In this document: positions 37,901-51,564 of the stretch, piece after piece
How the letters are laid out: each line of letters starts with the position of its first letter
Numbering within the stretch: position 1 is the first letter of the stretch
Virus record (IMG/VR): IMGVR_UViG_3300012347_000211
Location: 58,555-122,554 of that record
Direction: 5' to 3' (one strand)
Length of the DNA: 64,000 nucleotides
Source of the DNA: a virus
Program-made: the position numbers and the translations under genes
Notes under the pieces: generated by a model
Databases searched by the model: none
Told to the model about the DNA's origin: nothing
The model's input: only the letters and a program-made list of their open reading frames with translations

Positions 37901-38933
37901 TTGGGATCAGTTGCAAGCGGTCTGCGCCAGGAGCCATTTCGTTTGTGGATCCAGCAGAGTTATCAAGGAGCGTGTCGTCCGAGTAGCTATTGATAACAGC
38001 TTCGGTGGTACTGAAACCCACGAATGCGTTGTTTGGTTGGCCATCTGCGATTGAACCATACTTGGACACCACCAATGTTTGTGGTGACACGTGCAGGAAG
38101 TGACCCTTCTGGAAGATCGTACCGTCGCTAACAGTAGCGGCGTAAGCTACGCCAACTGGATCAAAAGATGAATTCGCTACAACGAGTTGACCCAAGTAGT
38201 TGATGGCTGCGAGTTGAGCATCGATACCTGTGGTCGTATTGATCAGTACAGTAGGTGGGTTAACATAACCAGCACCCTTGTTAGTCACCGTAACTGTGCG
38301 GACTGTACCGTTAGCGTGCGTTGTTAGTGTGGCTTTAGCGCCTGCACCGCTATCGTTGTTTGCAACGAATTCGATAGTGTCTGTGTTAGAATATCCTACA
38401 CCACCCGCAACCACTTGCACAGACTCAACTGTACGGATACGGTTGTATGCTGTGAGGGTGTTGTTAGCCGAGTATGACTTCACATCGAACGGCTCGCCGT
38501 TGGTGTATGTCGATGTTCCAGTGTTGATATACTTAACGTATAGCGTGTTCAAGTCTGGAGCCAATGCTGTCAAGCCGCCCGCTTGATTAACAACTACAGA
38601 CTGAAGTCCATTGGTCGAGATTAGCAAAGAGTTTGCGAACGCATCTACGTCCACAGAGGTGCCGTTTAGTTGCTGATCTGCTAACTTGACGTAGTTGTAA
38701 TACGAGTCAAATGTGATGTTACATCCACGCAGAATGGTACCGCGGCGATATACACCATCACCAAAGCGTTCAACCTGGCTCTGCAACATTGCTTGGAGCT
38801 GGTTCAACTCACGCGCCTGGACAGCTACGCTAGGCTTAAAGAGCACTCGATGATAGTTATTCGCTTCTGCATTAGAAAAATCATCAAAATATGGAGCACC
38901 AGCAAGTGTGGTGTTCTGGATAGCTAATGGCAT
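31953..38933 (-). CDS. VrlC-like / DUF4815 large baseplate-associated structural protein
   Basis: APYFDDF...YHRVLFKPSVAVQARELNQLQAMLQSQVERFG, KRYTMKEIGNFDKRIERLEYYSLLN.LE, DPVAQTF, EDLKFTMYQADF; 2326 aa; follows gp8. Confidence 0.88.
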   Translation of the reverse strand: MPLAIQNTTLAGAPYFDDFSNAEANNYHRVLFKPSVAVQARELNQLQAMLQSQVERFGDGVYRRGTILRGCNITFDSYYNYVKLADQQLNGTSVDVDAFANSLLISTNGLQSVVVNQAGGLTALAPDLNTLYVKYINTGTSTYTNGEPFDVKSYSANNTLTAYNRIRTVESVQVVAGGVGYSNTDTIEFVANNDSGAGAKATLTTHANGTVRTVTVTNKGAGYVNPPTVLINTTTGIDAQLAAINYLGQLVVANSSFDPVGVAYAATVSDGTIFQKGHFLHVSPQTLVVSKYGSIADGQPNNAFVGFSTTEAVINSYSDDTLLDNSAGSTNEMAPGADRLQLIPKLVVLSPDEARADTEFLTLVEFQNGYPVRTQLETVHNSFSTEAAKRTSEESGDYVVTPFGVYAEEKFDLVGDALVANTTHLNAVVTPGVGYVQGIRTEIFNNYRFPMRKSTDTQLIESQYISTNFGNFVYVNNLAGSGFNPVSSANVVIYSTAMQAANSTNYGANIPTGTGSIGTARLRGLEYDSGIPGTPQGQYRMYLYDVKMNPGKSFESARSIGISSLAAADVVTSGNSSVQKAKLYDVNKDGLVFPVGAGALKSTNNATLVYRTVNTGVTFASTGNVQITFSSSDTTFPYTPGTVLSTTEENDFIFIPTANTQTSNLAGWSAAVTLGSNTVTGTGTTFTTAFTVGDFIAIANTTATVVKRITQIESNLKLYTDTNYAAAMTGNVAIYFPKYQPINLLNRTAATIRVNSANTVTADLGLTYIGATLASPMPTTAYYNAKVANPPLRTKKLQKDVLVKISTAATTTKPNGPWCLGIPDTHKITGVYIGSANNYAANTTNYVSQFELDNGQRDNLYGLSSLKKKPGSTVNTTGASLVVKLDTYYGHSDVTGGAYFAGPASYPIDDVNQSANTIAITTEEIEVFVSNRDGAVYDLRNSIDFRPLVANTANAVATSLAGATVDPSATETISVSPNYFPSPTKYLIADLEVYQSRVDKVVLGAQFDPLNGGSLTFIEGKPSLNPQEPNTPPNSMLLATINVPPYPSLDPISAGAVNRTDLAVKASVSRQQKRYTMKEIGNFDKRIERLEYYSLLNRLESKTKDSTQNQTALNGFLVDSFEDFGVSNLADSEFSAFVDTKNGVLRPRVRAEDVDLKFDTTIGSETTNVRGHSELVTLPYTHKPLLSQTYGTNERNIAGELWRFKGQLFLYPKFDGQYDKDIAPVNVTIDLAAAQNEVIDAVNAAFKLMDGKTTVQSLKQTGSVSSVSVSGSTATQTTLTSYDQMGIIEKANITGGPVTTTNDANFSSVSSVQFKPFMRANPVTFLATGLRPNTRHYIYFDDVDVNAHTVPAKYIGSLSGGPVDNATIVPTGIKGGELRTDDRGQLAGIFSIPADTFYVGERKIKIIDVSNIGSEEASISFTNAKYVAYNLDVDNQQVTISTKKLESVDTKLYTSFTGKVGTTVLTTTSSWTIPSCGGDPVAQTFKVPDALKTSTEGVYITKIDLYFATKSVSNDKGVTIQIRSTINGYPGQQLIPFSRKWLPTELINASDDASKPTTFTFDSPVFLKSGEEYCIVVIPDGLCPDFYVWTGEAGNSDVTNPNLVAKNDWGTGQMFTSVNNTAWNPHSFEDLKFTMYQADFSGSTTGAASFTHDNYEFLTLANPTGSFDRGDVVAQKSTSYQPGTLDTSAANATNDFIVSGTNTSFTSTLNTGDSLLLTYGLDPSANLTGTVKATTTAANLVGTGTDFTSELSIGDHVLVSNHVRQVINISNTTNLTLDAPVTAAITTATEFQKLNSVVYDIVKVSSISNDSQIKISKGPKFSQINPVPAANTLSAVNYMKVITGEVDRYRINDQKLYLKKSTASDSTNKFVQSQHVLLNADSGRAIVCALGSGVANVASIDDITYQYVEPKIETMAPQGTSLTRTYKTAKPNETILSATTGEDAGPTALPFTSVLKSRSNEINGSSVVTSFKMSENLQTGVSLASPAVDISPISLELIANQIDNYTTFRQLATYSTTSTTVAITDGTRVVAGMGIRGLGIPTDAVVTAVNGNVVTISKPTTGGVPVETFVEFHPNETQRFGVSKNKYISKYIELADQYEAEDLKVYITAYRPLGTDVDVYTRVIHEGDAEVASNKEWTLLEKTAATAGLYGNPGNSGDFKEYVYVLPKTLPSLRMTGKANTSTGSTTVIMDSTARVDSELVVGDLVKLVKADSTAANGTLVVATNDDYDIRTVTAVSNSSQFAVDSAPSFTLAGATVEKVTQPRGSFRYNRTSPGYIAVYHGAASDGTLTAQYSGYKYLAVKIVLRADNQITVPVVSDMRAIAVMI
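32041..32048 (-). promoter_or_regulatory. Intragenic late promoter TATAAATA at the 3' end of the DUF4815 gene
   Basis: tatttata at 32041-32048, ~90 nt upstream of ATG 31951; a second variant CATAAATA at 31882-31889. Confidence 0.5.
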
Positions 38934-38944
38934 TTATGTCCTCT

Positions 38945-40714
38945 TTAAAACTCTAAAATAACTTTGATTGTTTCTGTCTGGCCGTCGTTCTTTGCGACTG
39001 GAGATTTATTGTCTATGTATAACACTTCTCCAGACCCGACTACGAGGTCACCGGCTGTTACTGCGCCAGCAATTGCGGTCACGCCACTAGACTCACCACG
39101 AATTGTGATGTTGGCTCCTGGTGCTGCTGTACCTATGTTAACAAACTTACCACGGATATCTGTCACATTCAATACAGTACTGTTGGCTGTATAGATGTAT
39201 GCATTTGCAGGAGAACCTGATTGAATCACCTTCTCATCTTGGTCAAATGATCCTGAAGCAATGGCAAATTCGAGTTTGGATGTCTGATCAAAGTATGTTT
39301 CTTGGCCACTCACCGATGACACAACGGCGTTTGCGTTCGGCGCCGTTTGACCAACCACTGAGTAACCGCTTCTGAAATAACCGAGCACATCTGTCAAACG
39401 TAGCACCGTGGTTCCAGTAGAGACAGTAACAATGCCGGTTGCACCAGTAGTATCTTGTGTTACCACGTCGCCTTCAATGAAGTCGGCCGTAGCGTCCAAC
39501 GTCAATTGTACGTCAGCAAATAATGGGCTCCTGAGGACACCAACTGTTCTGAAGTCGTTGACGTCTCTAACCTTGCCACCAGAATCAACTGAGCTGAATT
39601 TGGTGGAGATGCAGATGGAATTGCTTCCCAGCTCAATAGCTGGGTTGCTTCCGTGACCAGTATATGGCCCAACGATAGGGCGGATGGTGGCCGTGTTAGA
39701 TAGACCACCCGTATTACCGACCACAGTTGCTGTGGCCCAAGTATACGATTCGCCGTGCGTGGTGATTTCAATAGACGATATTGTGTTGCCCGCTGCTGCA
39801 TTCACTAAAGCACGCCCCGTGAATCCACTTCCGTCACCGACAAGAACTACAGCTGGTGTAATTTCATACCTCGATGATGTATTTGGTGTCAAGTCGAATG
39901 CAGAATCGATCTTAATGCGACGTGCTGCGCCGACTGCATAATAAGTATCAATCGTCCTGATCTGTCCTTGGCCTTTGCCTTCAACAATCTTAACGGCACA
40001 ACCGTCGTAGTAGTGTGCGTTAGATGATGCTGTAGTTTCAATTGCAAATAACAGTGGATCGTTATCTACTGAGATTGCTTGGATCAGACCGCTGTTGTAT
40101 GATCCATAATCCGATCCACCCTTTGTTAGCGCAATGTAGTCGATACTACCAGACACAGAGTTGCCAGACACATCAGCGTTAGGTACTACAGGAATCGTGC
40201 CAACTGTATGGAACTTATTGTACTCTACTTGGCTGACGCTAAACATATACTTCCAAATGTAACCATCTGGGCGTGTTTCATATCCTGCAAATTCCGCTGC
40301 CGATGTTGCAGTGAGGCTAGGTGCCACGGTCGAGATGGCACGGCCGTTATTACCAATGCACAAGAATACGTCTCTTGCAGTGCCACGCTTAACGACTACG
40401 TAGAATTCCTTGTTGAACAAATCAGCATCGGTGTCGTCGTAAAAATCATACACCTTTCCAGAAGTCCATTCGATATCACGAATCAGATATGCAATGTCGT
40501 TACCAGTAACATGCTTACCGCAGATCATATTGCGGTACTGATCATATAACGAACCTGTCAGGCTGAGGTTGACGTCTGGTGGTACCGCATCCCCTGCTTG
40601 GTATGGCAAGTGACGTGCGAGGTACACAAAGTGAGGGGAGGTATTGCTAGCAACCGATTGCTTGAATAATTCCGCTTGTCTTACTCGCAGGTTATTGGTA
40701 ATTTGTTTTGGCAT
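38945..40714 (-). CDS. gp8: Baseplate wedge subunit
   Basis: WTSGKVYDFYDD, FYVV...VFLCIGNN, DGYIWKYMF, GHGSNPAIELG, NDFRTVG, SGEVLYIDN...QTETIKVILEF. Confidence 0.9.
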   Translation of the reverse strand: MPKQITNNLRVRQAELFKQSVASNTSPHFVYLARHLPYQAGDAVPPDVNLSLTGSLYDQYRNMICGKHVTGNDIAYLIRDIEWTSGKVYDFYDDTDADLFNKEFYVVVKRGTARDVFLCIGNNGRAISTVAPSLTATSAAEFAGYETRPDGYIWKYMFSVSQVEYNKFHTVGTIPVVPNADVSGNSVSGSIDYIALTKGGSDYGSYNSGLIQAISVDNDPLLFAIETTASSNAHYYDGCAVKIVEGKGQGQIRTIDTYYAVGAARRIKIDSAFDLTPNTSSRYEITPAVVLVGDGSGFTGRALVNAAAGNTISSIEITTHGESYTWATATVVGNTGGLSNTATIRPIVGPYTGHGSNPAIELGSNSICISTKFSSVDSGGKVRDVNDFRTVGVLRSPLFADVQLTLDATADFIEGDVVTQDTTGATGIVTVSTGTTVLRLTDVLGYFRSGYSVVGQTAPNANAVVSSVSGQETYFDQTSKLEFAIASGSFDQDEKVIQSGSPANAYIYTANSTVLNVTDIRGKFVNIGTAAPGANITIRGESSGVTAIAGAVTAGDLVVGSGEVLYIDNKSPVAKNDGQTETIKVILEF

Positions 40715-40720
40715 AATCGT

Positions 40721-43700
40721 TTATAGGGAAGCATCCACGGACACAATATTAGCTGTGTAGGTAATCGATCCGTTTGCGTTTGTTTGTGATATTGTAAGAC
40801 CTGGCACAATTGAGATGTACGGTGTAACGCTGTTGTTGACGACGTTAGTGATCTTTAGTGTATTTAGGCTACTGTCTTGCAAGGTGTGTCCAGTCTGGTT
40901 TGCACCTGCAGTCAACGAAACACGTGGGCCACCGATTGTATTTGCGAGAGCTACCACAGTAGTATTAGCAAATTCCACATAGTATGTTGTGTTGCTCGTT
41001 AGACCACCGATAGCTGTGTTGCCAACAGCAACCTTGTATGTGAGTGGTTCACCAATCGTCACAGTAGCACCAAGCGATGTCTTGATATAGCTGTTGTTGC
41101 CGGACTGCACCAAGTAGTGTCCGTTACCTTCACCGACAGATGTCAATGCTACACGGCTTCCACCTTGGGTGGATGTAAGAGCAATGTGTGTCGCGTTGGC
41201 AAACTGAACGAAGTAGCCTGTGTTATTGGACAATCCCGTAACTGCAGTGTTACCAACATCGGTGATGTAAGTTACCGCATCACCAGTGCTAAACGCGGAA
41301 GCATTAGCAGTAGCAATTGTATTACGATCTCCATAAGACGAGAATGTGTGACCACGCTCTGTCTTACCTCTAGCGAGTGGCAAGCGGATACCAACAAATT
41401 GCGCAGAAGTTACAGCAGTGTTGGCTGGCGTGACGTTGGTCGAAAATACGTTGGAGCTCGAAACGAAACGTCCAACAGCAGATGCCGCATTGATTGTCAG
41501 GTATCCAGTATTGACGTCGATCACTGTACCAACAGCACTGTTTGCAGAACCTTCTTTTCTCTGATACACAACATCATTGACGTTGAAACCAGTAGAGGAT
41601 GCTACTTGAAGGACGATGTCCATGTTATTAGCAACAGCAAAGAGAGTGTTATTTGCAAATTGGACGTAGTATGTTTCGTCTGGTGTAAGGCCAATCATCG
41701 CAGTGTTACCACTACGGACCGTGTACAATACCTTATCACCAACTTCGAATTGTGTCGAAGGCGCGATGAACGTACTGCTTCTTCCAGACGAACTCAACAC
41801 ATGACCAGGGCTATTTGCGCCAGATTGTGTCAGCGTAATACGAGTACCACCAGCAGTATTAGCTAGAGCAATAGCGGTTGAGTTTGCAAACTGGACAAAG
41901 TATGATGTATTGGCATCCAGGCCACCGATCGCATTCACATCGAATGACGGTGGGTAGTATACTACCTCATCGCCAGCAGACATGGATCTTGCCAACGGTG
42001 TCAGGATAACGCTACGGCTTCCGATAGCTGTAAATGTGTGGCCAGTCTCAGATGAGCCGCTCGTCAAATTGATACGATCGCCATCGACTGTGTTGGCCAA
42101 TGTGATTACGCTGTTGTTGACAAACTGAACGTAGTACTCGCCGTTTGCTCTTAGTCCGCCAATCGAAGTGTTGCCAGCATCGACTGTGTATAGCACTTTA
42201 TCGCCAACAGCAAAAGAGTTGGCAGATGCTAGAGTGATGTAGTTGGTGTTACCATCTTGCAAAGAGACTACATGAGCATTACCAGGAGTCAGCGATTGAG
42301 CTACTGACAAACGTACACCAGTTGGTGTTGCAGCAAGTGCAATAGATGTAGCGTTAGCGAATTGGACGTAGTATGAAGTACCGTTAGCCAATCCAGATGC
42401 TGGTGCGAATCCAGCATTGACATTATATTTAACTAGGTCACCAACATTAAATCCTGAACCAGCCGCAGTAGCGATTATACTCTTGTCGCCGACCTGGGTC
42501 AACAGGTGCCCTTGTTGAGTTGAACCTTTTGTTAGAGTAGTACGACGACCGCCACCAACTGACGCGTCGCCCAAATTCAAGCTTAGGTGTGTGTTGTTGG
42601 CAAACTGAACTGTGTATACCGATCCACGGTTAACTGCAGCCACAGATGTGTTTGTGGTTGAGTTGGCGAATACGTTTGCGCTAGTAACAAATGTGCCTTG
42701 TAGTGTGGAACCAGCCAGAAGGACGGTGGTAGCACCAACGGCAGCTACAGTAGCAACGCCAGTGTTTGCAGATCCGCCAGCGCGTTGCCATACAGGGTTA
42801 CCGACAACGAATCCTACATTAGAACCAACCGACAGGGACACGGCGTTGATAATCAAATCAGGAATTGGCGTGGTACCAGCGGCCACATCATATACCACTT
42901 GATCACCAACAGTAAACTTGTTTGCATCAGCGGTGGCGATAGTAGACTTGAGATCTTCACCAGTGATTGAGTGTCCGTTGGATGTAGTTGCACCACGGAC
43001 CAGACCGATACGACCACGAGACACAGCAGTCAACTGATGTCCCAATTCACCAACACCAGATGCGGTGATGATGCGTGTACCACCATTAGTAGCTGACAAT
43101 GACACAGTAGTTGTGTTTGCTGATTCGATGTAATACGTTTCGCCAGACACGAGGTTTGCAAGTGCTGTATTTCCGCCAGCGACTGTGTAGTATACTGCGT
43201 CGCCCACATCAAATAGTGAGTTGGCGTTGGCAATAGTAATGGTGCTATTTGCTCCACCACCAGAACCGCCTGTCACAGATGTAGATGCATTGAAGTACAC
43301 GTTGGTGCCGACTTTACCAGTAAGCATTTGTGTAGCCAATGAGATTCGGTCAGTGTCAATTGTAGAGTGTACATAGTAGATTTGGTTGTTAACCAATCCG
43401 CCGATCGCGGTGTTGCCAGCGTCGCTGATGTAGCGCACACGTTCACCTGGATTGAACAGGTACGCGTTTGCTGTTTGGACGGTGCTGATGCCAGACAGAT
43501 AATGTCCAGTCTCAGTGTTGCCCTTATTAGACAACAACAGACGTGGTCCGCCACGAGTAGCGGACAGAGATACGGCTGTCGAGTTCGCAGTGTCGATGTA
43601 GTAAATTGCAGTGGTATTCAAATCCACTAGCGTTGTGTTGCTAATCGATGCAGAGTATTGCACAGGATCGCCTGGCTGGAATCCGGCAGCACCTGATGTA

Positions 43701-46700
43701 ACGATTGTGCTGTTGGCGCCAGTCATAAAGCGAATGACGTGTCCTGATTCTGTCTTACCCTTGGTGAGAGGGATACGTGCAGCTCCTGTCATGTCGACAG
43801 ACGACAACGCAACGTTTGCTGCAGAGTTGATAATCAGGTTGGCCGTGGTTGTGAACATACCAGACAACCCTCTTGTGGTGACTGTAATGGTATTTCCGTT
43901 GACTTGCGATACAGTACCGACAGCCGTATTAGTGTTGTTGCCAGTAGCGCCTGCACGTTGATACACAACGCTACCGTTGGTGATTGCTGTACCGAACGCG
44001 GTTGTCAATGTTACAGTGTTACTGGACGACAGAGCAAATGCAGTGGTATTAGCAAACTGAATGTAGTAAACAGTATTCTTAGTCATTCCACCAACAGCAG
44101 TGTTACCAGAATTGACGCTGTAGAACAACGGATCGCCTACAGCAAATAATGTATTAGCATTCGTTTTGGTAATAGTGCCCAAGCGCGTTGTCGCTAGGGT
44201 ATACTGCTGTGTGAAGCTGTATGATACCGATGCGCTATTGGTGAATGGTTGAACCGGTGCAATCAGAGCAACACGACCGCCGCCGTAGTTGTTTGCAAGA
44301 GCGAACACCGTCGAGTTAGCAAACTGGACATAATACGTTGATTGTGCTAGTTGTGTGTTGATCAGGGTAGGAATGCCTTTGACAGCAGACGTTGTTATCT
44401 TGATCGCTTGTCCTTCAGACAAGTATGTGTTGGCATCAGCGAGCTTGAATACGCTGTTTGCGCCAGTGACGCTCATGCCAGTCAACCCATAGAAATGAGC
44501 AGTTCTTGCAGATTTGAGATTATTAAAGGCGACCGGCGATGACCTGAAAATGCTGGACATTGGATCAGGCAGCGTCGATGGAGTAACCGATACGCGGTTA
44601 TTGAACGAGCGAATAGCAACGTTCGATCCGACTGTTCCGATCATTAGGTTGCTTCCAGGGATCAGAGAACCAAATGCTGTCTGATAGCTGTTAGCGAATT
44701 CGCCTTCGATGGTTGATGCGTCTACTATTACAGTCTTATTGCTTGTATTCGCATCGTTAACATAGAGAACCGTTCCTTTAGCTGTGTTTGCTGCGGATAG
44801 TCTGTCGGCACGTTGGAATACAGTTGCGCCGTTAGCAATCGACAACGACGAGTTGCCAATTTCAAATATGTAAGGCATCCTTGTAGCAGACATTGTAGTG
44901 CTAACAGTTGAGCTTACCACGACATTTGCAGTAGTAATAAAGTTTGCGTACGTCGCGCCCACGATGCCGAACAATGCTGCGTATGATTGGAACGCTTGCT
45001 GTTCTGCAGCTGTATATTCGATCGTGACGACGTCGTTGAACACACTTGCAACTCTACCAATTGCAGTGACGTTGTTTAGTGTGATTGCAGTTGAAGGAGG
45101 GATTGTGTTTGGTGCGATTACGTTCTTACGGTCCGCGGACAAGTACATTGTGACGCCAGCACCTGGCAGTGTGTCGCCGTTCATTTGATACACATAGTTG
45201 CCAACAACGAATCCTGTGTTGGATCCTACTACGATTTCAAACTTATTTGTGAACGCGAGATGGGTAGCATTAGCAGATTGAACTTTGTATGAATATCCAT
45301 TCACCAGACCCGCGATAGGGTATTTGTCTGTGTTTACATACAGCGCCACATCACCCGCCACAAGCGATTGCGATGCCAATGGAGCGACATTTACAGACAG
45401 CTTATTGTTTGTGCTATCTACGCCACCAGCAGTAGATGAAGTGTAGTGCCAAGGAGTAGTAGTACACTGAGACGTTCCGGTCATCGTAGTCGACACAGCG
45501 TTTGCTGCAATATCGATAGTCAGGATAGATCCAGTGACGTCTGTATTGGAGTTGAATGTGGTGTTGGTAGACAGACGGACGCCAGTATTGGCATTGAAGT
45601 TCAATACGGTCGCTGGGGTCACGCCAGCATTGGCTGTGAAGTATTCCACAGTACCGGACGTGATTTGATTTGGATCGAATGATGCAGTGAAGCCTGGAGT
45701 GATATCCGATACGCCATCGAATGTGAATGCCACGCCGTTAGCCACGTCTGCCTGAGCATCGAATGTGTCGACCACACCGGAGACCACGTTGCTGGATCCA
45801 TCAAACGTGAGATTGATACCCTCGATCACATCGGTGTTTGCGTTGAATGTATATGCGCTACCTGTAGTAACGGATGTTCCACCATCAAACGTAGCCGCTT
45901 GCCCACCCACAACATTGGTGCTAGCATTAAACGATACCGATACAGGAGATGTAATCTCGATCAGTGTTCCTGTGATGGTTCCAGATGTGTTTGGTGTATC
46001 TTGAATCACTACAGTGTTGCCGCCCACAGTGAAGTTGGCTACATTGGACACCTCAACAGTAAAGAATGCGTTGGATTCTGGGGCCGTGGCCTGGCTGTTT
46101 GCTACGCTTTGGCTAACAACAGCACCGAACATACGAGTGCCTGCGACGTGAACGCTTTCCTTGACTTTTGCTTCGTAAATGTCTTTAGACAACGAAGATT
46201 GGATTTCGTATGAGTACTCTTGGTAGTAATCGCTGTCCTGCAACTTCTTTTCGCTGCTAACAAATCCGTCAATTGTGTTCCAACGTCCTTCGCCCACGCC
46301 TTGGTTGAGCAATTCAACTTGTGCAGTAGCGACGTATGGGTTGCCTTCAGCGCTCAGTGTTACGATTTCGCCGTGTTGGTATGCCACGCCAGAATCAAGA
46401 ACGGATACGGTGGTGACAGTTCCACGGGCATTACCGGCGTCTGTGCTCACAATAGAGTTGTTGCCCATCACTGGAGAGTTGTCTAGTTCTTGAGCCGACA
46501 CGACGTTTGCAGTGGCGGTAGATGTAACGCCAGTAATGGTACGGCCAGCAACGAATCCTGTACCGAAGAACTTTCGGCGAACTCTAATACCATCTGTGCC
46601 CGACGATACAATGATGCCGCGCATCAGCGAGTCAAATGTCGCGTTAGCGGAGCTGTTGACGTTGCTGGTAACTACACCAGACGTCAATCCAACCACACCA

Positions 46701-49348
46701 TTGCTTGTATCAAACGTTGCGCCAACCACCGCGAGGCCATATTGACCGTTAGTAGCATGGACGGAACCAACTGATACAGTGTATGGGGATAGTGTTACGT
46801 CCTGGGTCAACACAGTACCGTATACCCACACACCATCGCTACGCTCTTGCACAACACCTTCGCCTGCAGCAAACGATGTGTTGCCTGTGAATGTGTCGAA
46901 CTCTACGTTGCTGAATGTGATCGTGTAGTCTTGTGTAATTTCCTCGCCCACAACAAATGATCCAACTGTATCAGTAGGAACAATCAGCTCTTCGCGGATG
47001 TCAGCACCAGCAATAGCTTTTTCGATGATAAGCACCACTGGATCAACTGTGTTCAAGTTACCTGGGTTGATGTTAGCGATGGACGCAATGCTGCCAATCA
47101 ATGTGTTGGTATAAGAGAGCGCGTCGATGATCAAGCTGCTGCTATTAGCAGCCACGTTGCCAGAGAATCCAAATCCAAACTGAACAACTGGGATCAATGA
47201 TGCGCCAGTTCCACCAGTCGGTGTAGCGAACGGCACACTACTGTAGCCGCTACCTGAGTTGTTGACTACTGCATTGGTGATCGTGCCGGATCCATTTGTA
47301 GTGATGGTAATTGTACCATCAGTAGTTGGGTTGCCACCAGTGAGTGTGATGTTGCCGTTTGTGTATCCTGAACCACCGGCCACGATAGAAACAGACGTAA
47401 CGATACCTGCGTCAGCAGTCACGCCCGGTATGGTCAGAGCAGTCAGCGTGGATGTGCCAGGCGTTACGTTAGCTGAATAAATCAATTCGCCTTGTACCAG
47501 TGCGCCTTGCAGTGTAGTGAAGGCTACAGTGGCATTTGCACCAGTGATGCTAACGATTGTTCCTACTGCCGTGTTTGTTGAACCGCCGACGCGTTGATAA
47601 ACCTTATCATCGACGTTGAAGTTCGTGTTGGAGCTCAGAGTGATTTCAACATCGTGGTTGCGGATCCAAAGATCTGTGAACGGGATTCCGTTGTAGTTGT
47701 TTCCACTCAATTCGTCTGTGTTGATGTACACATATTCAGAATCGACGATGTTGCCAACTTGGAAGCCGCCAGGTTCGCCCGAGCTTACTGTAGATACGTT
47801 TGCGTATGCATTAGACACGACGCCGATCACATGAGCAGCCTCATTAGGCTTGAATGGATAGCTTGGAGAAACTGCATACAGCCCAGCATATGCTGTGTTT
47901 CCGCCGATGTACAATCCAGATGCTGTGCGGTCTTGTTTAGCGCCAGTAGAGGTTGCCAATACTACACTGAGGCTAGATAGAGCGTTCGTTGTGTTGGCCA
48001 TCCAGTAGTCTGTGATTGACAGGTTAGCTGCTGGCTCATCGTATGTGGCGACACTAACTACGTTTGCGGTAGTTGCACGACTTGTTGTATATACAGTTGC
48101 GTTCGATACGAACTCACCGAATCTGCGGTCGATGAAAATGTGTGTTGTATTTGCACCCACAACTTCACCCACGGCTGTATTGGACCCGATGGTGTTCTGA
48201 TATACCAAGTCACCAGGACTGTATGTGCCTGTTGTTGTGTCTCCAGCAACAACTGTATCCAATTGGATCAAGTCTGTTGTGTGATCAGATAGCAATAGCC
48301 ATCCAGATGCACCTGCCTGTCCGTATTCAACTATCACGCCCGTAGATACGATTGTATTTGCGACGTCGACACCGATGACATACGATCCAGGAATGAAGCT
48401 GGATGTAGCAGAAGCGAATCCTACGTTACTCAGTGGCTGACGAATCTCTTCAAGTTGGTTGAATCCTTCTGAAGGAACGAAACGGTTCCATGGACGCAGG
48501 TTAGTGATTCCGAGAACCTTCTCAGACACGTAGATCGAAGGTGTTAGACTGTAGCCATATCCACCATCTACGAGGTCGTAGCTAACTTGACCGGATTGGT
48601 TTTGAATGGATGTTACACGAGCCTTGCCGCCATGACCAGACTCAGAAGAGATGACATCGAGCACTTCGCCGACGTTATATTCTCTGCCTTTAGACTTGAT
48701 GATCAGGTTGGTGACGGATCCAATGATACGAGGAGCATCTTCAAAGGTACCATCGTTCGTGATAACTTCGCCATATTCAAATAAGCCACGCACGCTGGAT
48801 AGTTGGATCATGTCGAATACAACAGATCCTAACTTGCGGCGGGATACAGATTCAACAATAGCACTAGCACCAGACTGGCTACCTGTGATTTGTTTACCAA
48901 CTAACGTCTCAGCTTTGGACGTGACCGTAACTTCCAAATATTTTGGAACTTGGTAAATGGCAGATGAAGGTTTGAATACATCGTCGCCGGGCCAATACAC
49001 CTCGGCTTCTTCGCCGTATACTAGCTTAAACAGCAACTTGATCGCACGCACAGATCCCTTTGATCTGTATATGTCGAGGCTGTGCTTAACAAGGGTTCGT
49101 TTGTCTGTCTCGTTAAGTAGAGCGAATCCAGGAAGAAACTTTTCCTTGTAGCTTGGCAGGAACTCTTCCGGTGTAAGATCGATGTCAAAGTACTCAGGAA
49201 TCTTGCGACTGTGGTACAGAGCGTTACCAGTGGACTCGAGCCACTCATAGTATGTCTTTACGAAACTAACTAAGAATTGTCCCTCTTCGCGATATACAGC
49301 AGGAAACTGTTGTTCGACTAGAGGAGCAATTTTACCCTTTGAAATCAT
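40721..49348 (-). CDS. gp7: Giant baseplate wedge initiator with long repetitive C-terminal appendage
   Basis: N-terminal LVEQQFPAVYREEG..LVSFVKTYYEWLE, YRSKGS...LFKLVYGEE; KLQDSDYYQEYSYEI...VHVAGTRMFG motif, followed by ~1790 aa of repeats; lies between gp6 and gp8. Confidence 0.88.
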   Translation of the reverse strand: MISKGKIAPLVEQQFPAVYREEGQFLVSFVKTYYEWLESTGNALYHSRKIPEYFDIDLTPEEFLPSYKEKFLPGFALLNETDKRTLVKHSLDIYRSKGSVRAIKLLFKLVYGEEAEVYWPGDDVFKPSSAIYQVPKYLEVTVTSKAETLVGKQITGSQSGASAIVESVSRRKLGSVVFDMIQLSSVRGLFEYGEVITNDGTFEDAPRIIGSVTNLIIKSKGREYNVGEVLDVISSESGHGGKARVTSIQNQSGQVSYDLVDGGYGYSLTPSIYVSEKVLGITNLRPWNRFVPSEGFNQLEEIRQPLSNVGFASATSSFIPGSYVIGVDVANTIVSTGVIVEYGQAGASGWLLLSDHTTDLIQLDTVVAGDTTTGTYSPGDLVYQNTIGSNTAVGEVVGANTTHIFIDRRFGEFVSNATVYTTSRATTANVVSVATYDEPAANLSITDYWMANTTNALSSLSVVLATSTGAKQDRTASGLYIGGNTAYAGLYAVSPSYPFKPNEAAHVIGVVSNAYANVSTVSSGEPGGFQVGNIVDSEYVYINTDELSGNNYNGIPFTDLWIRNHDVEITLSSNTNFNVDDKVYQRVGGSTNTAVGTIVSITGANATVAFTTLQGALVQGELIYSANVTPGTSTLTALTIPGVTADAGIVTSVSIVAGGSGYTNGNITLTGGNPTTDGTITITTNGSGTITNAVVNNSGSGYSSVPFATPTGGTGASLIPVVQFGFGFSGNVAANSSSLIIDALSYTNTLIGSIASIANINPGNLNTVDPVVLIIEKAIAGADIREELIVPTDTVGSFVVGEEITQDYTITFSNVEFDTFTGNTSFAAGEGVVQERSDGVWVYGTVLTQDVTLSPYTVSVGSVHATNGQYGLAVVGATFDTSNGVVGLTSGVVTSNVNSSANATFDSLMRGIIVSSGTDGIRVRRKFFGTGFVAGRTITGVTSTATANVVSAQELDNSPVMGNNSIVSTDAGNARGTVTTVSVLDSGVAYQHGEIVTLSAEGNPYVATAQVELLNQGVGEGRWNTIDGFVSSEKKLQDSDYYQEYSYEIQSSLSKDIYEAKVKESVHVAGTRMFGAVVSQSVANSQATAPESNAFFTVEVSNVANFTVGGNTVVIQDTPNTSGTITGTLIEITSPVSVSFNASTNVVGGQAATFDGGTSVTTGSAYTFNANTDVIEGINLTFDGSSNVVSGVVDTFDAQADVANGVAFTFDGVSDITPGFTASFDPNQITSGTVEYFTANAGVTPATVLNFNANTGVRLSTNTTFNSNTDVTGSILTIDIAANAVSTTMTGTSQCTTTPWHYTSSTAGGVDSTNNKLSVNVAPLASQSLVAGDVALYVNTDKYPIAGLVNGYSYKVQSANATHLAFTNKFEIVVGSNTGFVVGNYVYQMNGDTLPGAGVTMYLSADRKNVIAPNTIPPSTAITLNNVTAIGRVASVFNDVVTIEYTAAEQQAFQSYAALFGIVGATYANFITTANVVVSSTVSTTMSATRMPYIFEIGNSSLSIANGATVFQRADRLSAANTAKGTVLYVNDANTSNKTVIVDASTIEGEFANSYQTAFGSLIPGSNLMIGTVGSNVAIRSFNNRVSVTPSTLPDPMSSIFRSSPVAFNNLKSARTAHFYGLTGMSVTGANSVFKLADANTYLSEGQAIKITTSAVKGIPTLINTQLAQSTYYVQFANSTVFALANNYGGGRVALIAPVQPFTNSASVSYSFTQQYTLATTRLGTITKTNANTLFAVGDPLFYSVNSGNTAVGGMTKNTVYYIQFANTTAFALSSSNTVTLTTAFGTAITNGSVVYQRAGATGNNTNTAVGTVSQVNGNTITVTTRGLSGMFTTTANLIINSAANVALSSVDMTGAARIPLTKGKTESGHVIRFMTGANSTIVTSGAAGFQPGDPVQYSASISNTTLVDLNTTAIYYIDTANSTAVSLSATRGGPRLLLSNKGNTETGHYLSGISTVQTANAYLFNPGERVRYISDAGNTAIGGLVNNQIYYVHSTIDTDRISLATQMLTGKVGTNVYFNASTSVTGGSGGGANSTITIANANSLFDVGDAVYYTVAGGNTALANLVSGETYYIESANTTTVSLSATNGGTRIITASGVGELGHQLTAVSRGRIGLVRGATTSNGHSITGEDLKSTIATADANKFTVGDQVVYDVAAGTTPIPDLIINAVSLSVGSNVGFVVGNPVWQRAGGSANTGVATVAAVGATTVLLAGSTLQGTFVTSANVFANSTTNTSVAAVNRGSVYTVQFANNTHLSLNLGDASVGGGRRTTLTKGSTQQGHLLTQVGDKSIIATAAGSGFNVGDLVKYNVNAGFAPASGLANGTSYYVQFANATSIALAATPTGVRLSVAQSLTPGNAHVVSLQDGNTNYITLASANSFAVGDKVLYTVDAGNTSIGGLRANGEYYVQFVNNSVITLANTVDGDRINLTSGSSETGHTFTAIGSRSVILTPLARSMSAGDEVVYYPPSFDVNAIGGLDANTSYFVQFANSTAIALANTAGGTRITLTQSGANSPGHVLSSSGRSSTFIAPSTQFEVGDKVLYTVRSGNTAMIGLTPDETYYVQFANNTLFAVANNMDIVLQVASSTGFNVNDVVYQRKEGSANSAVGTVIDVNTGYLTINAASAVGRFVSSSNVFSTNVTPANTAVTSAQFVGIRLPLARGKTERGHTFSSYGDRNTIATANASAFSTGDAVTYITDVGNTAVTGLSNNTGYFVQFANATHIALTSTQGGSRVALTSVGEGNGHYLVQSGNNSYIKTSLGATVTIGEPLTYKVAVGNTAIGGLTSNTTYYVEFANTTVVALANTIGGPRVSLTAGANQTGHTLQDSSLNTLKITNVVNNSVTPYISIVPGLTISQTNANGSITYTANIVSVDASL

Positions 49349-51138
49349 TATAGACGCTCCGGCGTGATTGTGATGTAAATGTCTGACGCTTTGATTTTCA
49401 TAATCTTATTCTGTGTCGCCACAACATCCTTCTGCTCAGGTACGATGTAAAACTGAATTCCATCACCTGCATACTCGCTTACAGTCAAGCTAGGAATAAC
49501 AATCGTTCCTGTATTGTAATCGATCGTTCCCACATCTTCACGAATGATCGTGTGCGACGTTGGAGTCAATTTGACTAGTCGTAAAACACCCGAACCGTTA
49601 TCCTCGAAGCTGATACCATCGGTACCTTCGAATGTGAACGTGGAAGAAGTCACAGACTGCTCATCGACATACAAGTGAGTGGTGTTGCGCTCTGCCAAAC
49701 GTCTGACTGCATTCTTAAACGCGATCGTGATCTTGTTGTCTGCATTGACCGTTGGCACATATGTTATATATGGGCGAATAATCAGATCGTTACTGAGGAT
49801 TGAGTTGTCAGCCACATCGATTGCGGACGACAATTGACTTCCGCGCAAAGTGACAGCAAAGTCATCAAGGTATTGCGTTGAGTAGTTAATGATTGCAGAC
49901 TTCGCTACCAATTCGATGTCTTGTTGTGACAATGTAGTTGAGTTGACGTTATATCGAACGTTGCTTCTCACATCGACGTACATGAATTCAGGATCAATGA
50001 TCACAGGATCGATTGACAACGAGCAGCGGTCACGGAGATACTGCAAGTATTCGTTCTTCTTGTATTCAGGTACACCATCGGCGTCCTGGACGTCGACTGA
50101 GACAAGGACCTTGCCGAAACGTGGTGGCTCTGCATCTTCACCACCATACACGTTGACGGAAGTGATTTCTGGATATGTGTTAAACAACAAGGACTTGTAG
50201 TCGGCTGTAGTCACAGCACGTTCTTGTGTTTGGAAATACTTCGGAGCGTTGAATCGGATAGACTCAATACTTTCAGTTGTGATTCCTCCGGTGGCGGACT
50301 GCACGGTGTTAATGATGACATTGGAGTGTCCGTCGATCGTTGTATCAACAGAGAACACAGATGCGCCGTTTGGCAGTTCGCCTGCGCTTGTTCTATAGGT
50401 GGCTGTGATTACAGCACCGTTCTTTGGACGACGTCCCAGATCACCAGAAGAGAACACGATCTCGTACTTCTGAGATTCAGCGGCCTGCAAGAAGCACACT
50501 TGGCTTGTTGCAATAAGACCGAACAGTGAAGTACCCACTGTGTATTCTAGAGGATCGTTTGCATCATCTTCCAACACCGTAACGAACAAGCTGCTCGTAT
50601 CAATAGCAGGGTCGGTAAGAACAAAGCGCTGAGTAGTCTCAGAATAATCCATTACAAACACATCACTAGTGAACGGTCCCTCATAGATAGCGACGTTGGC
50701 TGCAACGAATGTGTTGTTGGTAGACGTCAGGATCCTGTTTTCTGGAAGCGTAAACGTGAACGTGTTTGCACCAACCTTGGATGTGAAGCTCAACCCCTTT
50801 GGCAGAATGACCGTGTTAGGAGAGTTGGTTGGTGTGATTTGAATGTCGATGTTTGCTCTAGATGAACGGAATGAGCGCGGAACGTAGTTCAGCGACTTCG
50901 CGTGCGAGACAACACTGTCACGCGACTGTGCCGTGTCCAAGAACATCTCGGTCGACATCATATTCATGTAGAATGAGTTGATGTACGTGTTGTATGCTAG
51001 TAGGTCGATGAGGACGCTGATGTTCGATCCGTCAAAGTCGACATCTTGGAAACGCGCCTGGGAGCGCATATACGTCTTGTAATTTTCTTTGAGTGTATCA
51101 AAGTCTAAGTCGATTAGACTTACGGCTGTGTTTGCCAT
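49348..51138 (-). CDS. gp6: Baseplate wedge subunit
   Basis: LDFDTLKEN...DFDGSNISVLIDLLAYNTY, RDSVVSHAKSLNYVPRS, ESIESIRFNAP...QERAVTTADY, VYGGED. Confidence 0.95.
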   Translation of the reverse strand: MANTAVSLIDLDFDTLKENYKTYMRSQARFQDVDFDGSNISVLIDLLAYNTYINSFYMNMMSTEMFLDTAQSRDSVVSHAKSLNYVPRSFRSSRANIDIQITPTNSPNTVILPKGLSFTSKVGANTFTFTLPENRILTSTNNTFVAANVAIYEGPFTSDVFVMDYSETTQRFVLTDPAIDTSSLFVTVLEDDANDPLEYTVGTSLFGLIATSQVCFLQAAESQKYEIVFSSGDLGRRPKNGAVITATYRTSAGELPNGASVFSVDTTIDGHSNVIINTVQSATGGITTESIESIRFNAPKYFQTQERAVTTADYKSLLFNTYPEITSVNVYGGEDAEPPRFGKVLVSVDVQDADGVPEYKKNEYLQYLRDRCSLSIDPVIIDPEFMYVDVRSNVRYNVNSTTLSQQDIELVAKSAIINYSTQYLDDFAVTLRGSQLSSAIDVADNSILSNDLIIRPYITYVPTVNADNKITIAFKNAVRRLAERNTTHLYVDEQSVTSSTFTFEGTDGISFEDNGSGVLRLVKLTPTSHTIIREDVGTIDYNTGTIVIPSLTVSEYAGDGIQFYIVPEQKDVVATQNKIMKIKASDIYITITPERL

Positions 51139-51564
51139 TTATCGGATCCTATCTAAAAACATGGTCATCGTTACTGGAGTCACGCTATTTATCAGCGTGT
51201 AAGTCAGCTTGATGTTGTACGTCTGCAATTCAATGTCTGGCTCTACCACGACACTGACTAGTTGAATTCTTTTCTCGTGATTCCTGATCGTATCTTCGAT
51301 TGCTGTCTGAATCATAATAGCCGTCATCGCTGAAGGATTTTCAAACAGGGCGTATCTGACATTCGATCCGATAGACGGCTGGAATGGACGCTCGTACATA
51401 TCAGTCAACAAGAGATTTTTGATAGCGGCAGTGATTGCTTGCTCGTTACGGACACGAATCACATCACGTGTGTTTGGATGAATGTCCAAATTAGAGCTGA
51501 AGTCGCTAAAGAGATCGTTTGGCTTTGAAACGACCTGATATTTTTCGGCATTGAATGTTGCCAT
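51139..51564 (-). CDS. gp25: Baseplate wedge subunit
   Basis: AIKNLLLT...ERPFQPSIGSNV...LFE...IRNHEKRI; precedes gp6. Confidence 0.92.
   Translation of the reverse strand: MATFNAEKYQVVSKPNDLFSDFSSNLDIHPNTRDVIRVRNEQAITAAIKNLLLTDMYERPFQPSIGSNVRYALFENPSAMTAIMIQTAIEDTIRNHEKRIQLVSVVVEPDIELQTYNIKLTYTLINSVTPVTMTMFLDRIR

What the first reader, a model, noticed from the sequence alone, without database searches (positions are those of the whole stretch)
40721..46070. Matryoshka (recursively nested) domain architecture in the gp7 C-terminal appendage
Seen: after the conserved gp7 end motif come 11 tandem 13-14-aa segments (~45490-45940): SVSFNASTNV, AATFDGGTSV, AYTFNANTDV, NLTFDGSSNV, VDTFDAQADV, AFTFDGVSDI, TASFDPNQI, VEYFTANAGV, VLNFNANTGV, NTTFNSNTDV and a degenerate LTIDIAANAV. 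After a central divergent unit come 11 ~80-aa bodies of consensus I......F.VGD.V.Y....GNT.I.GL..N..YYVQFAN.T...LA...GG.R..LT.G..E.GH.L (~44480-40870). One extra copy, inserted in a loop of another body (~43020-43310), is intact and begins NVYFNASTSV. This shows that the short segment is the normal first strand of the domain. The array also appears to interrupt a small beta domain (N-half FTVEVSNVANFTVGGNTVVIQ...SGTITG; C-half NTLKITNV...TANIVSV at the C-terminus). Inference: each domain was inserted into the loop after strand 1 of the previous one, so the chain runs out as 11 single strands and returns completing each domain in reverse order. This would give a hairpin-topology rod ~12 domains long. 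The 11:11 match, with the degenerate strand next to the most degenerate body, supports this. I do not know of such deep nesting described for a baseplate protein.
Basis: partly seen in the sequence, partly recalled or inferred. Interest (0 to 1): 0.85.

Follow-up and report, generated by a model that had tools for sequence, protein, structure and literature searches.

The report
Twelve-deep nested beta-barrel rod in gp7
The tail-baseplate protein gp7 of this phage ends in a long appendage whose chain seems to run out as twelve single strands and come back completing twelve small barrel domains in reverse order, which would be about twice as deep as the deepest domain-in-domain nesting I found in print.

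Summary
ORF 40721-49348 (-) encodes a 2875-aa gp7-like baseplate wedge protein. After the conserved core end come 11 periodic ~14-aa 'xTF(N/D)xxTxV' segments plus a cryptic 12th. Then follow one complete central domain, 11 strand-less ~78-aa bodies and one intact extra copy (aa 2015-2109) inserted in a loop of body 4.

The short segment is the first strand of the domain. In relatives, 103 complete copies in 67 of 94 proteins start with it, and its F and N are near-invariant. AlphaFold2 folds the intact copy as a small closed beta-barrel (pLDDT 91.6) with this strand included.

The nested pairing (strand i with body 12-i) is supported indirectly:
- Five lineages at 36-39% identity all keep 12 strands, a centre and 11 bodies.
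- Strand and body degeneracy correlate only in the nested register (r 0.58; 2 of 5000 permutations).
- Shallow relatives read S-S-B-B.
- A two-chain fold gave weak support (0.51 against 0.00).

No model shows the contacts. The split flanking domain is only suggestive. The deepest nest I found in print has six levels (cyanobacterial RNA polymerase Si3). Verdict: real, a new variant of recursive domain insertion, confidence about 0.75.

The parts
40721..49348 (-). gp7-like baseplate wedge protein, 2875 aa (P0001)
   Evidence: ORF. phrog_17744 'baseplate wedge subunit' E 1.6e-148 over aa 3-612. PF23786 scores 23.7 bits, below its cut-off of 27. 40% identity to the phiM12 baseplate wedge subunit. 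Flanked by baseplate wedge genes.
45944..46066 (-). aa 1095-1135: possible N-half of a split small beta domain
   Evidence: Aligns to positions 8-36 of the small-domain HMM at -8.7 bits, not significant. An FxVGD-like stretch stands at the same place in P0003, P0004, P0007 and P0008.
45482..45943 (-). aa 1136-1289: eleven orphan first strands S1-S11, ~14 aa each
   Evidence: Seven of them pass an independent PSSM threshold. The period is 13-14 aa.
44477..45481 (-). aa 1290-1624: central unit. It holds the cryptic 12th strand (~1298), the domain body (HMM hit 1324-1368), two inserted small domains (1372-1430, 1500-1558) and a last strand near 'AHFYGLTG'. It is the predicted tip of the hairpin.
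   Evidence: The equivalence to the compact central domains of P0004, P0003, P0007 and P0008 is my reading of the printed sequences; the MAFFT alignment put this region elsewhere. The last-strand assignment is by eye.
40874..44476 (-). aa 1625-2825: eleven bodies B1-B11 that lack the first strand
   Evidence: HMM hits; alignments.
43022..43306 (-). aa 2015-2109: intact domain copy N (own first strand plus body) inserted in a loop of B4
   Evidence: AlphaFold2 pLDDT 91.6, pTM 0.84.
43787..43999 (-). aa 1784-1854: small FxVGDxVYQ-type domain inserted in B2
   Evidence: Small-domain HMM hit 1781-1852, E 4.7e-21.
42629..42829 (-). aa 2174-2240: small domain inserted in B5
   Evidence: HMM hit 2171-2242, E 4.9e-27.
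41393..41602 (-). aa 2583-2652: small domain inserted in B9
   Evidence: HMM hit 2580-2649, E 6e-25.
40724..40873 (-). aa 2826-2875: C-terminal tail, possible C-half of the split small domain
   Evidence: Aligns to HMM positions 24-59 at -6.2 bits, not significant. A ~45-aa tail after B11 is present in all five lineages.

Best explanation
The C-terminal 1780 aa of gp7 form one polypeptide hairpin made of twelve copies of a small, unnamed phage beta-barrel domain, nested one inside the other.

In each of the eleven outer copies only the first strand (about 10 aa plus a 4-aa linker) lies on the outgoing chain. The next copy is inserted into the loop between strand 1 and strand 2. The twelfth, central copy is complete and forms the turn. 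On the way back each ~78-aa body closes its barrel with the waiting strand: S11 with B1, S10 with B2, and so on to S1 with B11.

The expected result is a rod of twelve barrels in which neighbouring barrels are joined by two chain segments. Both chain ends would sit at the baseplate and the lineage-variable central unit at the far tip.

Shown: the segments and bodies, that the segment is strand 1 of a confident barrel, conservation of the layout, and register-specific co-degeneration.

Inferred: the intramolecular pairing, the rod shape (roughly 30-50 nm, from 12 barrels and a 14-aa strand period), outward display of six such rods per baseplate, and a role in host-surface binding or as a strut.
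For: 1. The short motif is strand 1.
- jackhmmer from the intact copy against the 98 fetched proteins gives 500 domain hits in 94 proteins. Of these, 103 in 67 proteins run from the motif to the last strand.
- In the 35-row alignment, F5 and N6 of the motif are near-invariant.
- AlphaFold2 of aa 2015-2109 gives pLDDT 91.6 and pTM 0.84, with strand E2-5 and block 1-10 at pLDDT 94.

2. Orphan strands keep F-N/D in five lineages that share only 36-39% identity overall with this protein.

3. The layout is conserved. P0001/P0002, P0003, P0004, P0007 and P0008 each have 12 periodic strands (DP segmentation), then a central domain, then 11 bodies.

4. The register is specific.
- Strand motif score against body HMM score, 5 lineages x 11 positions, gives Spearman r 0.56 for S_i with B_(12-i). 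Only 4 of 20000 body-order permutations reach it.
- With the PSSM and the HMM both built only from non-deep proteins, r is 0.58 and 2 of 5000 permutations reach it. The 13 other registers lie between -0.23 and +0.23. Leave-one-out values are 0.50-0.63.

5. Relatives show shallow nests. By eye on the sequences, with motif and HMM hits, the C-termini of P0013, P0011 and P0022 read S-S-B-B, and P0014 reads S-S-B-B-S-S-B-B.

6. Two-chain fold (ESMFold2). Chain 1 was aa 2364-2875 and the partner aa 1092-1205.
- Verdict: weak support. Score 0.51 against 0.00 for the best of 3 controls.
- The mark was reached by 58 of 80 solved complexes and 2 of 110 mismatched pairs. At 0.60 or under it was reached by only 7 of those 80 and by both mismatches that passed.
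- The runs agree in at least 96% of their contacts.
- Partner pLDDT is 73-74, against 31 when the bodies were replaced by an unrelated protein.

7. The intact copy sits in a loop of B4, so the two ends of the domain must be adjacent.
Against: - No tool gave residue contacts, so the pairing has not been seen directly.
- AlphaFold2 of aa 1178-1953 (S4-S11, centre, B1-B3; 10-row alignment) gave mean pLDDT 41.8 and pTM 0.28. The strands scored 30-39, so the planned internal control was unreadable.
- The complex score is in the band the tool calls weak. It was run in trans, so it cannot tell intra- from intermolecular pairing.
- In the window's own protein alone the co-degeneration correlation is r 0.19, not significant. 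The signal comes mainly from P0008 (0.88), P0004 (0.69) and P0007 (0.56).
- The lineages share ancestry and I chose the body boundaries by hand.
- All deep-nest homologues have the same count, so there is no natural variation within that clade to test.
- In the shallow clade the host domain is split after strand 2, not after strand 1. Those nests are therefore analogous rather than identical.
Confidence: 0.75

Rival explanations
1. Intermolecular strand donation. The strand array of one gp7 completes the bodies of another gp7 copy (a domain swap, as in donor-strand pili), tying wedges together instead of forming a single-chain hairpin.
For: The only fold that placed strands on bodies was run with two separate chains. 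Sequence alone cannot separate cis from trans pairing. The strand-body complementarity and the count match fit this reading equally well.
Against: - A complete central domain joins S12 to B1 directly, giving a built-in turn.
- Depth-2 nests in relatives have linkers too short for anything but cis pairing.
- The antiparallel register peak is what a hairpin predicts.
- From recall of the T4 baseplate, gp7 is present once per wedge and the copies are far apart.
Confidence: 0.1
2. The 14-aa repeats fold by themselves as a separate beta-solenoid or sheet-like stalk, and the bodies are self-sufficient domains that have simply lost strand 1.
For: A regular 14-aa period with alternating small and hydrophobic residues could in principle stack. 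AlphaFold2 on the inner construct did not place the strands on the bodies with any confidence.
Against: - The strand piece has pLDDT 31 when the bodies are replaced, against 73-74 with them.
- The orphan strands keep the F and N/D that are near-invariant core positions of the complete barrel.
- The strand number equals the domain number in five lineages.
- Degeneracy of strands tracks that of specific bodies.
- No Pfam repeat family matches the region at E <= 1.
Confidence: 0.07
3. Strands do complete bodies in cis, but not in the strict nested order. Examples are local shuffling or some bodies left open, giving a more globular bundle rather than a straight rod.
For: The window's own protein shows only r 0.19 in the nested register. 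S7, S11 and S12 are very degenerate, so some barrels may have dispensed with strand 1.
Against: Linkers of about 4 aa between strands, and none between bodies, leave little freedom. The register test peaks sharply at shift 0 and is flat at +/-1 (0.19, 0.00).
Confidence: 0.08

Closest known systems
Si3 insertion of cyanobacterial RNA polymerase beta' (nested SBHM domains)
   Same: It shows recursive domain-in-domain insertion of one repeated small beta domain, giving an elongated body in which several domains are built from distant chain segments. SBHM-2 to -5 of 8 are discontinuous (PMC10895346, passages read). It is described as a six-level nest in Prochlorococcus rpoC2 (PMC13114784, abstract and passages read).
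   Different: - Depth here is 12 homotypic levels, against 6 there.
- The split here is regular: exactly one strand out and the rest back.
- The SBHM fold was not among the listed fold matches, which were EF-Tu-domain-2, E1 FCCH and endosialidase-barrel like.
- The host protein is a phage baseplate protein, not a polymerase.
Beta-barrel domain of phage endosialidases (phi92 4hiz, K1F 1v0e) and the E1 FCCH / EF-Tu domain 2 barrels
   Same: - Best fold match of the intact copy is 4hiz_A residues 257-338, Z 8.2, rmsd 2.3 A, 74 residues aligned. UBA1 217-295 gives Z 6.4 and EF-Tu domain 2 gives Z 5.7-5.9.
- Foldseek finds 4hiz_B at E 0.097, TMq 0.61.
- The nearest ESM Atlas clusters that carry a Pfam family are E1_FCCH, score 0.91.
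- From recall, the endosialidase barrel is itself an inserted domain.
   Different: There is no sequence relationship: 18% identity, no Pfam hit for the 8 copies at E <= 10 apart from chance rows, and no PDB sequence hit below E 0.36. Z of about 8 is in the range the tool calls common. No function can be transferred.
The same unnamed barrel domain in other phage tail proteins (cyanophage S-TIM5 tail fibre; S-SRM01 and Bellamy 'baseplate wedge initiator'; uncultured Caudovirales proteins)
   Same: - BFVD matches include A0A6J5M6G5 (TMq 0.89, 45% identity), A0A6J7WSY4 'baseplate wedge subunit' (0.87) and H6WG57 'tail fiber' (0.75).
- 95 proteins among 1.84 billion representatives match at E <= 0.001.
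- Many gp7 homologues carry the domain in plain tandem or in depth-2 nests.
   Different: Those copies are complete (strand directly before body) or shallowly nested. Only five lineages show the 12-deep form.
Donor-strand complementation in chaperone-usher pili (recalled, not searched)
   Same: An incomplete beta domain is completed by a strand supplied from elsewhere, giving a stiff fibre of domains.
   Different: There the strand comes from the next subunit (in trans) and the fold is Ig-like. Here the strand most likely comes from the same chain and the fold is a closed barrel.

Membership tests
T4 gp7-type baseplate wedge protein | N-terminal wedge-core sequence similarity | tested here: met
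   phrog_17744 E 1.6e-148 over aa 3-612. tblastn gives 40% identity to the phiM12 'baseplate wedge subunit'. Pfam PF23786 reaches only 23.7 bits against its cut-off of 27.
T4 gp7-type baseplate wedge protein | Position between other wedge genes | tested here: met
   Neighbours at 51139-51564, 49348-51138 and 38945-40714 all hit 'baseplate wedge subunit' PHROGs (phrog_261, phrog_219, phrog_438). Calling them gp25, gp6 and gp8 is my inference from the T4 gene order (recalled).
Recursive (nested) domain insertion, A1-B1-C-B2-A2 type | Host domain sequence interrupted by a complete copy of a domain | tested here: met
   The intact copy aa 2015-2109 lies between the two parts of B4 (HMM hits 1954-2009 and 2110-2129). 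Small domains lie inside B2, B5 and B9.
Recursive (nested) domain insertion, A1-B1-C-B2-A2 type | Distant chain segments assemble into one domain at every level (S_i with B_(12-i)) | tested here: inconclusive
   Indirect support only: equal counts, the register test and the weak-support fold at 0.51 against 0.00. No contacts were obtained, and AlphaFold2 of the inner construct failed.
SBHM domain (as in RNA polymerase Si3) | SBHM fold | tested here: inconclusive
   No SBHM or RNA polymerase chain appears among the 50 VIA rows or the Foldseek rows shown. The tool states that an unlisted family is not excluded.
Endosialidase beta-barrel / E1 FCCH / EF-Tu domain 2 barrel fold | Six- to seven-stranded closed barrel superposable over most of the domain | tested here: inconclusive
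   Z 8.2, rmsd 2.3 A, 74 of 95 residues aligned to 4hiz_A; Z 5.7-6.4 to UBA1 and EF-Tu. The tool warns that Z under 8 may mean only a common arrangement. PF16190 was not hit by sequence.
Beta-solenoid repeat (rival for the 14-aa array) | Repeats fold on their own into a stacked structure | tested here: inconclusive
   The strand piece has pLDDT 31 with an unrelated partner and 73-74 with the bodies. No Pfam repeat family matches the region. No structure of the array alone was predicted.

The most novel reading that the evidence does not exclude
The hairpin rod is a mechanical zipper. Both chain ends meet in a split base domain on the baseplate, and every barrel is closed by a strand of the outgoing chain. 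The rod can therefore only fold from the tip inwards, after the whole chain is made. Pulling the two ends apart during the baseplate's conformational switch would peel the barrels open one by one from the base. That would turn the switch into controlled extension or release of the fibre. Nothing here tests this. The evidence only shows that the topology which would allow it is likely.
Probability: 0.06. Interest if true: 0.95.

Novelty: new variant of a known kind. Interest (0 to 1): 0.75.

Why it matters
If the topology holds, this is by far the deepest regular domain nest I could find described. It has 12 homotypic levels, and up to 14 if the possible flanking domain and the small domains inside the central unit are counted. 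A 2026 survey of 48,551 insertion events singles out six levels as its extreme case (PMC13114784, passages read).

It would show that recursive insertion can build a long fibre from a single chain, with both ends anchored and no free terminus at the tip. That is a different solution from trimeric phage fibres and from beads-on-a-string repeats.

It poses a clear folding problem: no outer barrel can close until the last third of a 2875-aa chain has been made. It offers a natural system for strand-complementation and mechanical unfolding studies.

For phage biology it defines an unnamed barrel domain. The domain is rare (95 of 1.84 billion cluster representatives). It marks baseplate and fibre proteins of T4-like phages of marine and alphaproteobacterial hosts, and it places the lineage-variable unit at the predicted tip, the likely host-contact site.

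Tried and rejected
Searches and folds that led nowhere:
- DNA-level repeats: Tandem Repeats Finder found none in 40000-47000.
- Phage GenBank collection: megablast and tblastn with the appendage found nothing. Only the gp7 core matched.
- Pfam and PDB by sequence for the body: nothing meaningful. The best PDB hit was YdhK at E 0.36; the Pfam rows had E 0.04 or worse, one member each.
- AlphaFold2 of aa 1178-1953. I included surplus strands S4-S8 as an internal control. Mean pLDDT was 41.8, so it was unreadable. The alignment was shallow (10 rows), and MAFFT put the central domains of the other clade on the wrong part of the query. A three-sequence alignment tested locally was worse.
- More deep-nest relatives with other repeat numbers: one scan of viral contigs gave 4 loci. 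Their gp7 genes are short (765 aa) or carry only scattered copies of the domain. The count-tracking test inside the deep clade was therefore not possible.
- Split flanking domain: tested with an HMM of the small domain. The two halves map in the right order but with negative bit scores, so I keep it as a possibility only.
- P0015 and P0031 matched the strand array only through their own unrelated short repeats. I disregarded them.
- Literature: five searches found no description of this architecture in a baseplate or fibre protein. Supplements were not available. Subscription-journal papers are outside the library.

Full report
**Context.** The window is part of a 122.5-kb viral contig estimated 68% complete. 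ORF 40721-49348 on the minus strand encodes 2875 aa. Its first ~1090 aa are a gp7-type baseplate wedge protein:
- phrog_17744 matches at E 1.6e-148.
- tblastn gives 40% identity to the 'baseplate wedge subunit' of Sinorhizobium phage phiM12 and to Caulobacter phage Cr30.
- PF23786 scores just under its cut-off, 23.7 against 27 bits.

The genes on both sides also hit baseplate-wedge PHROGs. Calling them gp25, gp6 and gp8 is my inference from the T4 order. The relatives in the phage collection end shortly after the conserved 'DSDYYQEYSYEI' motif (aa 1038 here). The 1780-aa appendage has no match in that collection.

**Observation.**
- Aa 1136-1289 hold eleven segments with a 13-14-aa period.
- A PSSM made from 83 first strands of other proteins finds 7 of them, plus the one at aa 2017, and nothing else in the protein, at a threshold of about one hit per shuffled protein.
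- Eleven ~78-aa bodies fill aa 1625-2825.
- Bodies 2, 5 and 9 each carry one ~70-aa small domain (E 5e-21 to 5e-27).
- Body 4 carries a whole extra copy of the repeat, aa 2015-2109, that begins NVYFNASTSV.
- There is no DNA-level repeat.
- I add a twelfth, cryptic strand ('PWHYTSST', aa ~1298) in front of the central domain. It is clearer in P0008 ('FVFNAASS') and P0004 ('TTFHTTSS').

**The short segment is strand 1 of the domain.**
- An exhaustive HMMER search of 1.84 billion cluster representatives found only 95 proteins at E <= 0.001, so the domain is rare and unnamed. There is no Pfam family and no PDB sequence match.
- Within the 98 fetched proteins, jackhmmer gives 500 domain hits in 94 proteins. 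Of these, 103 in 67 proteins run from the 'xTFNANTxV' motif through the last 'GHxL' strand.
- In a 35-row alignment the motif's F and N are two of the eleven near-invariant columns.
- With that alignment AlphaFold2 folds aa 2015-2109 at mean pLDDT 91.6 and pTM 0.84. The motif forms strand E2-5 and the first ten residues average pLDDT 94.
- The fold is a small closed beta-barrel. The best structural match is the inserted beta-barrel domain of phage phi92 endosialidase (Z 8.2, rmsd 2.3 A, 74 residues), followed by E1 FCCH and EF-Tu domain 2 barrels. Foldseek alone gives nothing at E <= 0.001.
- BFVD holds the same domain in predicted structures of uncultured phage proteins, a cyanophage tail fibre and cyanophage 'baseplate wedge initiators'.
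- The ESM Atlas neighbours are unnamed phage clusters, with E1_FCCH the nearest named one.

**Which body does each strand complete?** Four lines point to the nested order S_i with B_(12-i).
- *Conserved layout.* Five lineages (P0001/P0002, P0003, P0004, P0007, P0008), 36-39% identical to this protein overall, each have twelve periodic strands, one central complete domain and eleven bodies, followed by a ~45-aa tail. What sits at the centre differs: two small domains in the window's lineage, and a ~170-aa Tyr/Arg-rich repeat in the P0003, P0007 and P0008 lineages.
- *Co-degeneration.* Strand quality and body quality decay together only in the nested register. Spearman r is 0.56 over 55 pairs, reached by 4 of 20000 permutations of body order applied to all lineages alike. 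With scoring models built only from non-deep proteins, r is 0.58 and 2 of 5000 permutations reach it. The other 13 registers lie between -0.23 and +0.23, and leave-one-lineage-out values are 0.50-0.63. The window's own protein alone gives r 0.19, so the signal is a family property.
- *Shallow nests.* A second gp7 clade carries the domain in plain tandem and, at its C-terminus, in depth-2 nests that read S-S-B-B (P0013, P0011, P0022) or S-S-B-B-S-S-B-B (P0014). This is my reading with the hits. There the host domain is split after strand 2 rather than strand 1.
- *Two-chain fold.* Folding aa 1092-1205 against aa 2364-2875 as two chains gave weak support. The score was 0.51 (0.51, 0.51, 0.49) against 0.00 for the best of three controls. 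The mark was reached by 58 of 80 solved complexes and 2 of 110 mismatched pairs, but at 0.60 or under by only 7 of the 80 and by both mismatches that passed. The runs agree in at least 96% of contacts. Partner pLDDT is 73-74, against 31 when the bodies were replaced. No contacts were released, and a trans fold cannot tell cis from trans.

**Geometry (inference).**
- The intact copy is inserted in a loop, so the start of strand 1 and the end of the last strand must be adjacent.
- The inner nest replaces the 8-residue strand-1-to-strand-2 linker.
- Fourteen residues per step can span one barrel.
- This predicts a straight rod of twelve barrels with doubly connected neighbours, roughly 30-50 nm long. 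Both ends sit at the baseplate and the variable centre at the tip.

**Limits.**
- AlphaFold2 on the inner 776 aa failed (pLDDT 41.8), with a shallow and partly misaligned alignment.
- The claimed split small domain at the base maps in the right order on the small-domain HMM, but with negative scores.
- No deep-nest homologue with another repeat number was found.

**Comparison.**
- The nearest known thing is the Si3 insertion of cyanobacterial RNA polymerase. It has eight SBHM domains, four of them built from distant segments (PMC10895346, passages). A 2026 survey of 48,551 insertion events calls it a six-level nest and presents it as the complex extreme (PMC13114784, abstract and passages).
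- The gp7 appendage uses a different fold, is twice as deep, is regular (one strand out, the rest back) and builds a fibre.
- Five literature searches found no description of it. Supplements and subscription journals were out of reach.

**Verdict.** It is a new variant of recursive domain insertion, and a structure determination is worthwhile.

Noticed in passing
P0003 aa ~1236-1375; P0007 and P0008 equivalents: In three deep-nest lineages a ~170-aa Tyr/Arg-rich imperfect repeat ('PVYxTRxIYRxE...') lies between the 12th strand and the central domain, that is at the predicted tip. The window's protein has two small FxVGDxVYQ domains there instead. The tip is the variable part.
   Followed up: partly
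window 31953-38933 (-): The 2326-aa neighbour downstream of the gp8-like gene hits phrog_358 (unknown function, E 6.8e-277). An earlier first-reader note (e1-6136699) reports a three-level nested insertion in it at 33320-33970.
   Followed up: no
P0013 aa 1646-1827, P0011 aa 1633-1819: In the shallow gp7 clade the host barrel is split after strand 2: the 'FNxxxxV' motif plus a 'DxIxLxI' hairpin precede the insert. In the deep clade it is split after strand 1. The two kinds of nest may therefore have arisen independently.
   Followed up: partly
P0003 aa ~2050-2125; P0007, P0008 and P0009 equivalents; window gp7 aa ~650-720: A 'GxGYxNDxI...GxGYxxxP' module, which looks Ig-like by eye (not tested), is inserted in body 4 of three lineages. 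A similar stretch occurs in the gp7 core of the window's protein.
   Followed up: no
window gp7 aa 378-433 and 569-635: Two further full copies of the small FxVGDxVYQ domain lie in the gp7 core (E 1.8e-15 and 3.9e-23). The same module is used as an insert in the core, the central unit and three bodies.
   Followed up: partly
P0019 (194 aa): MAFFT aligned the same last strand to either of two bodies of this small protein. This hints that one barrel is inserted before the last strand of the other, which would be a third insertion site in the family. P0005 and P0013 also seem to show it.
   Followed up: no
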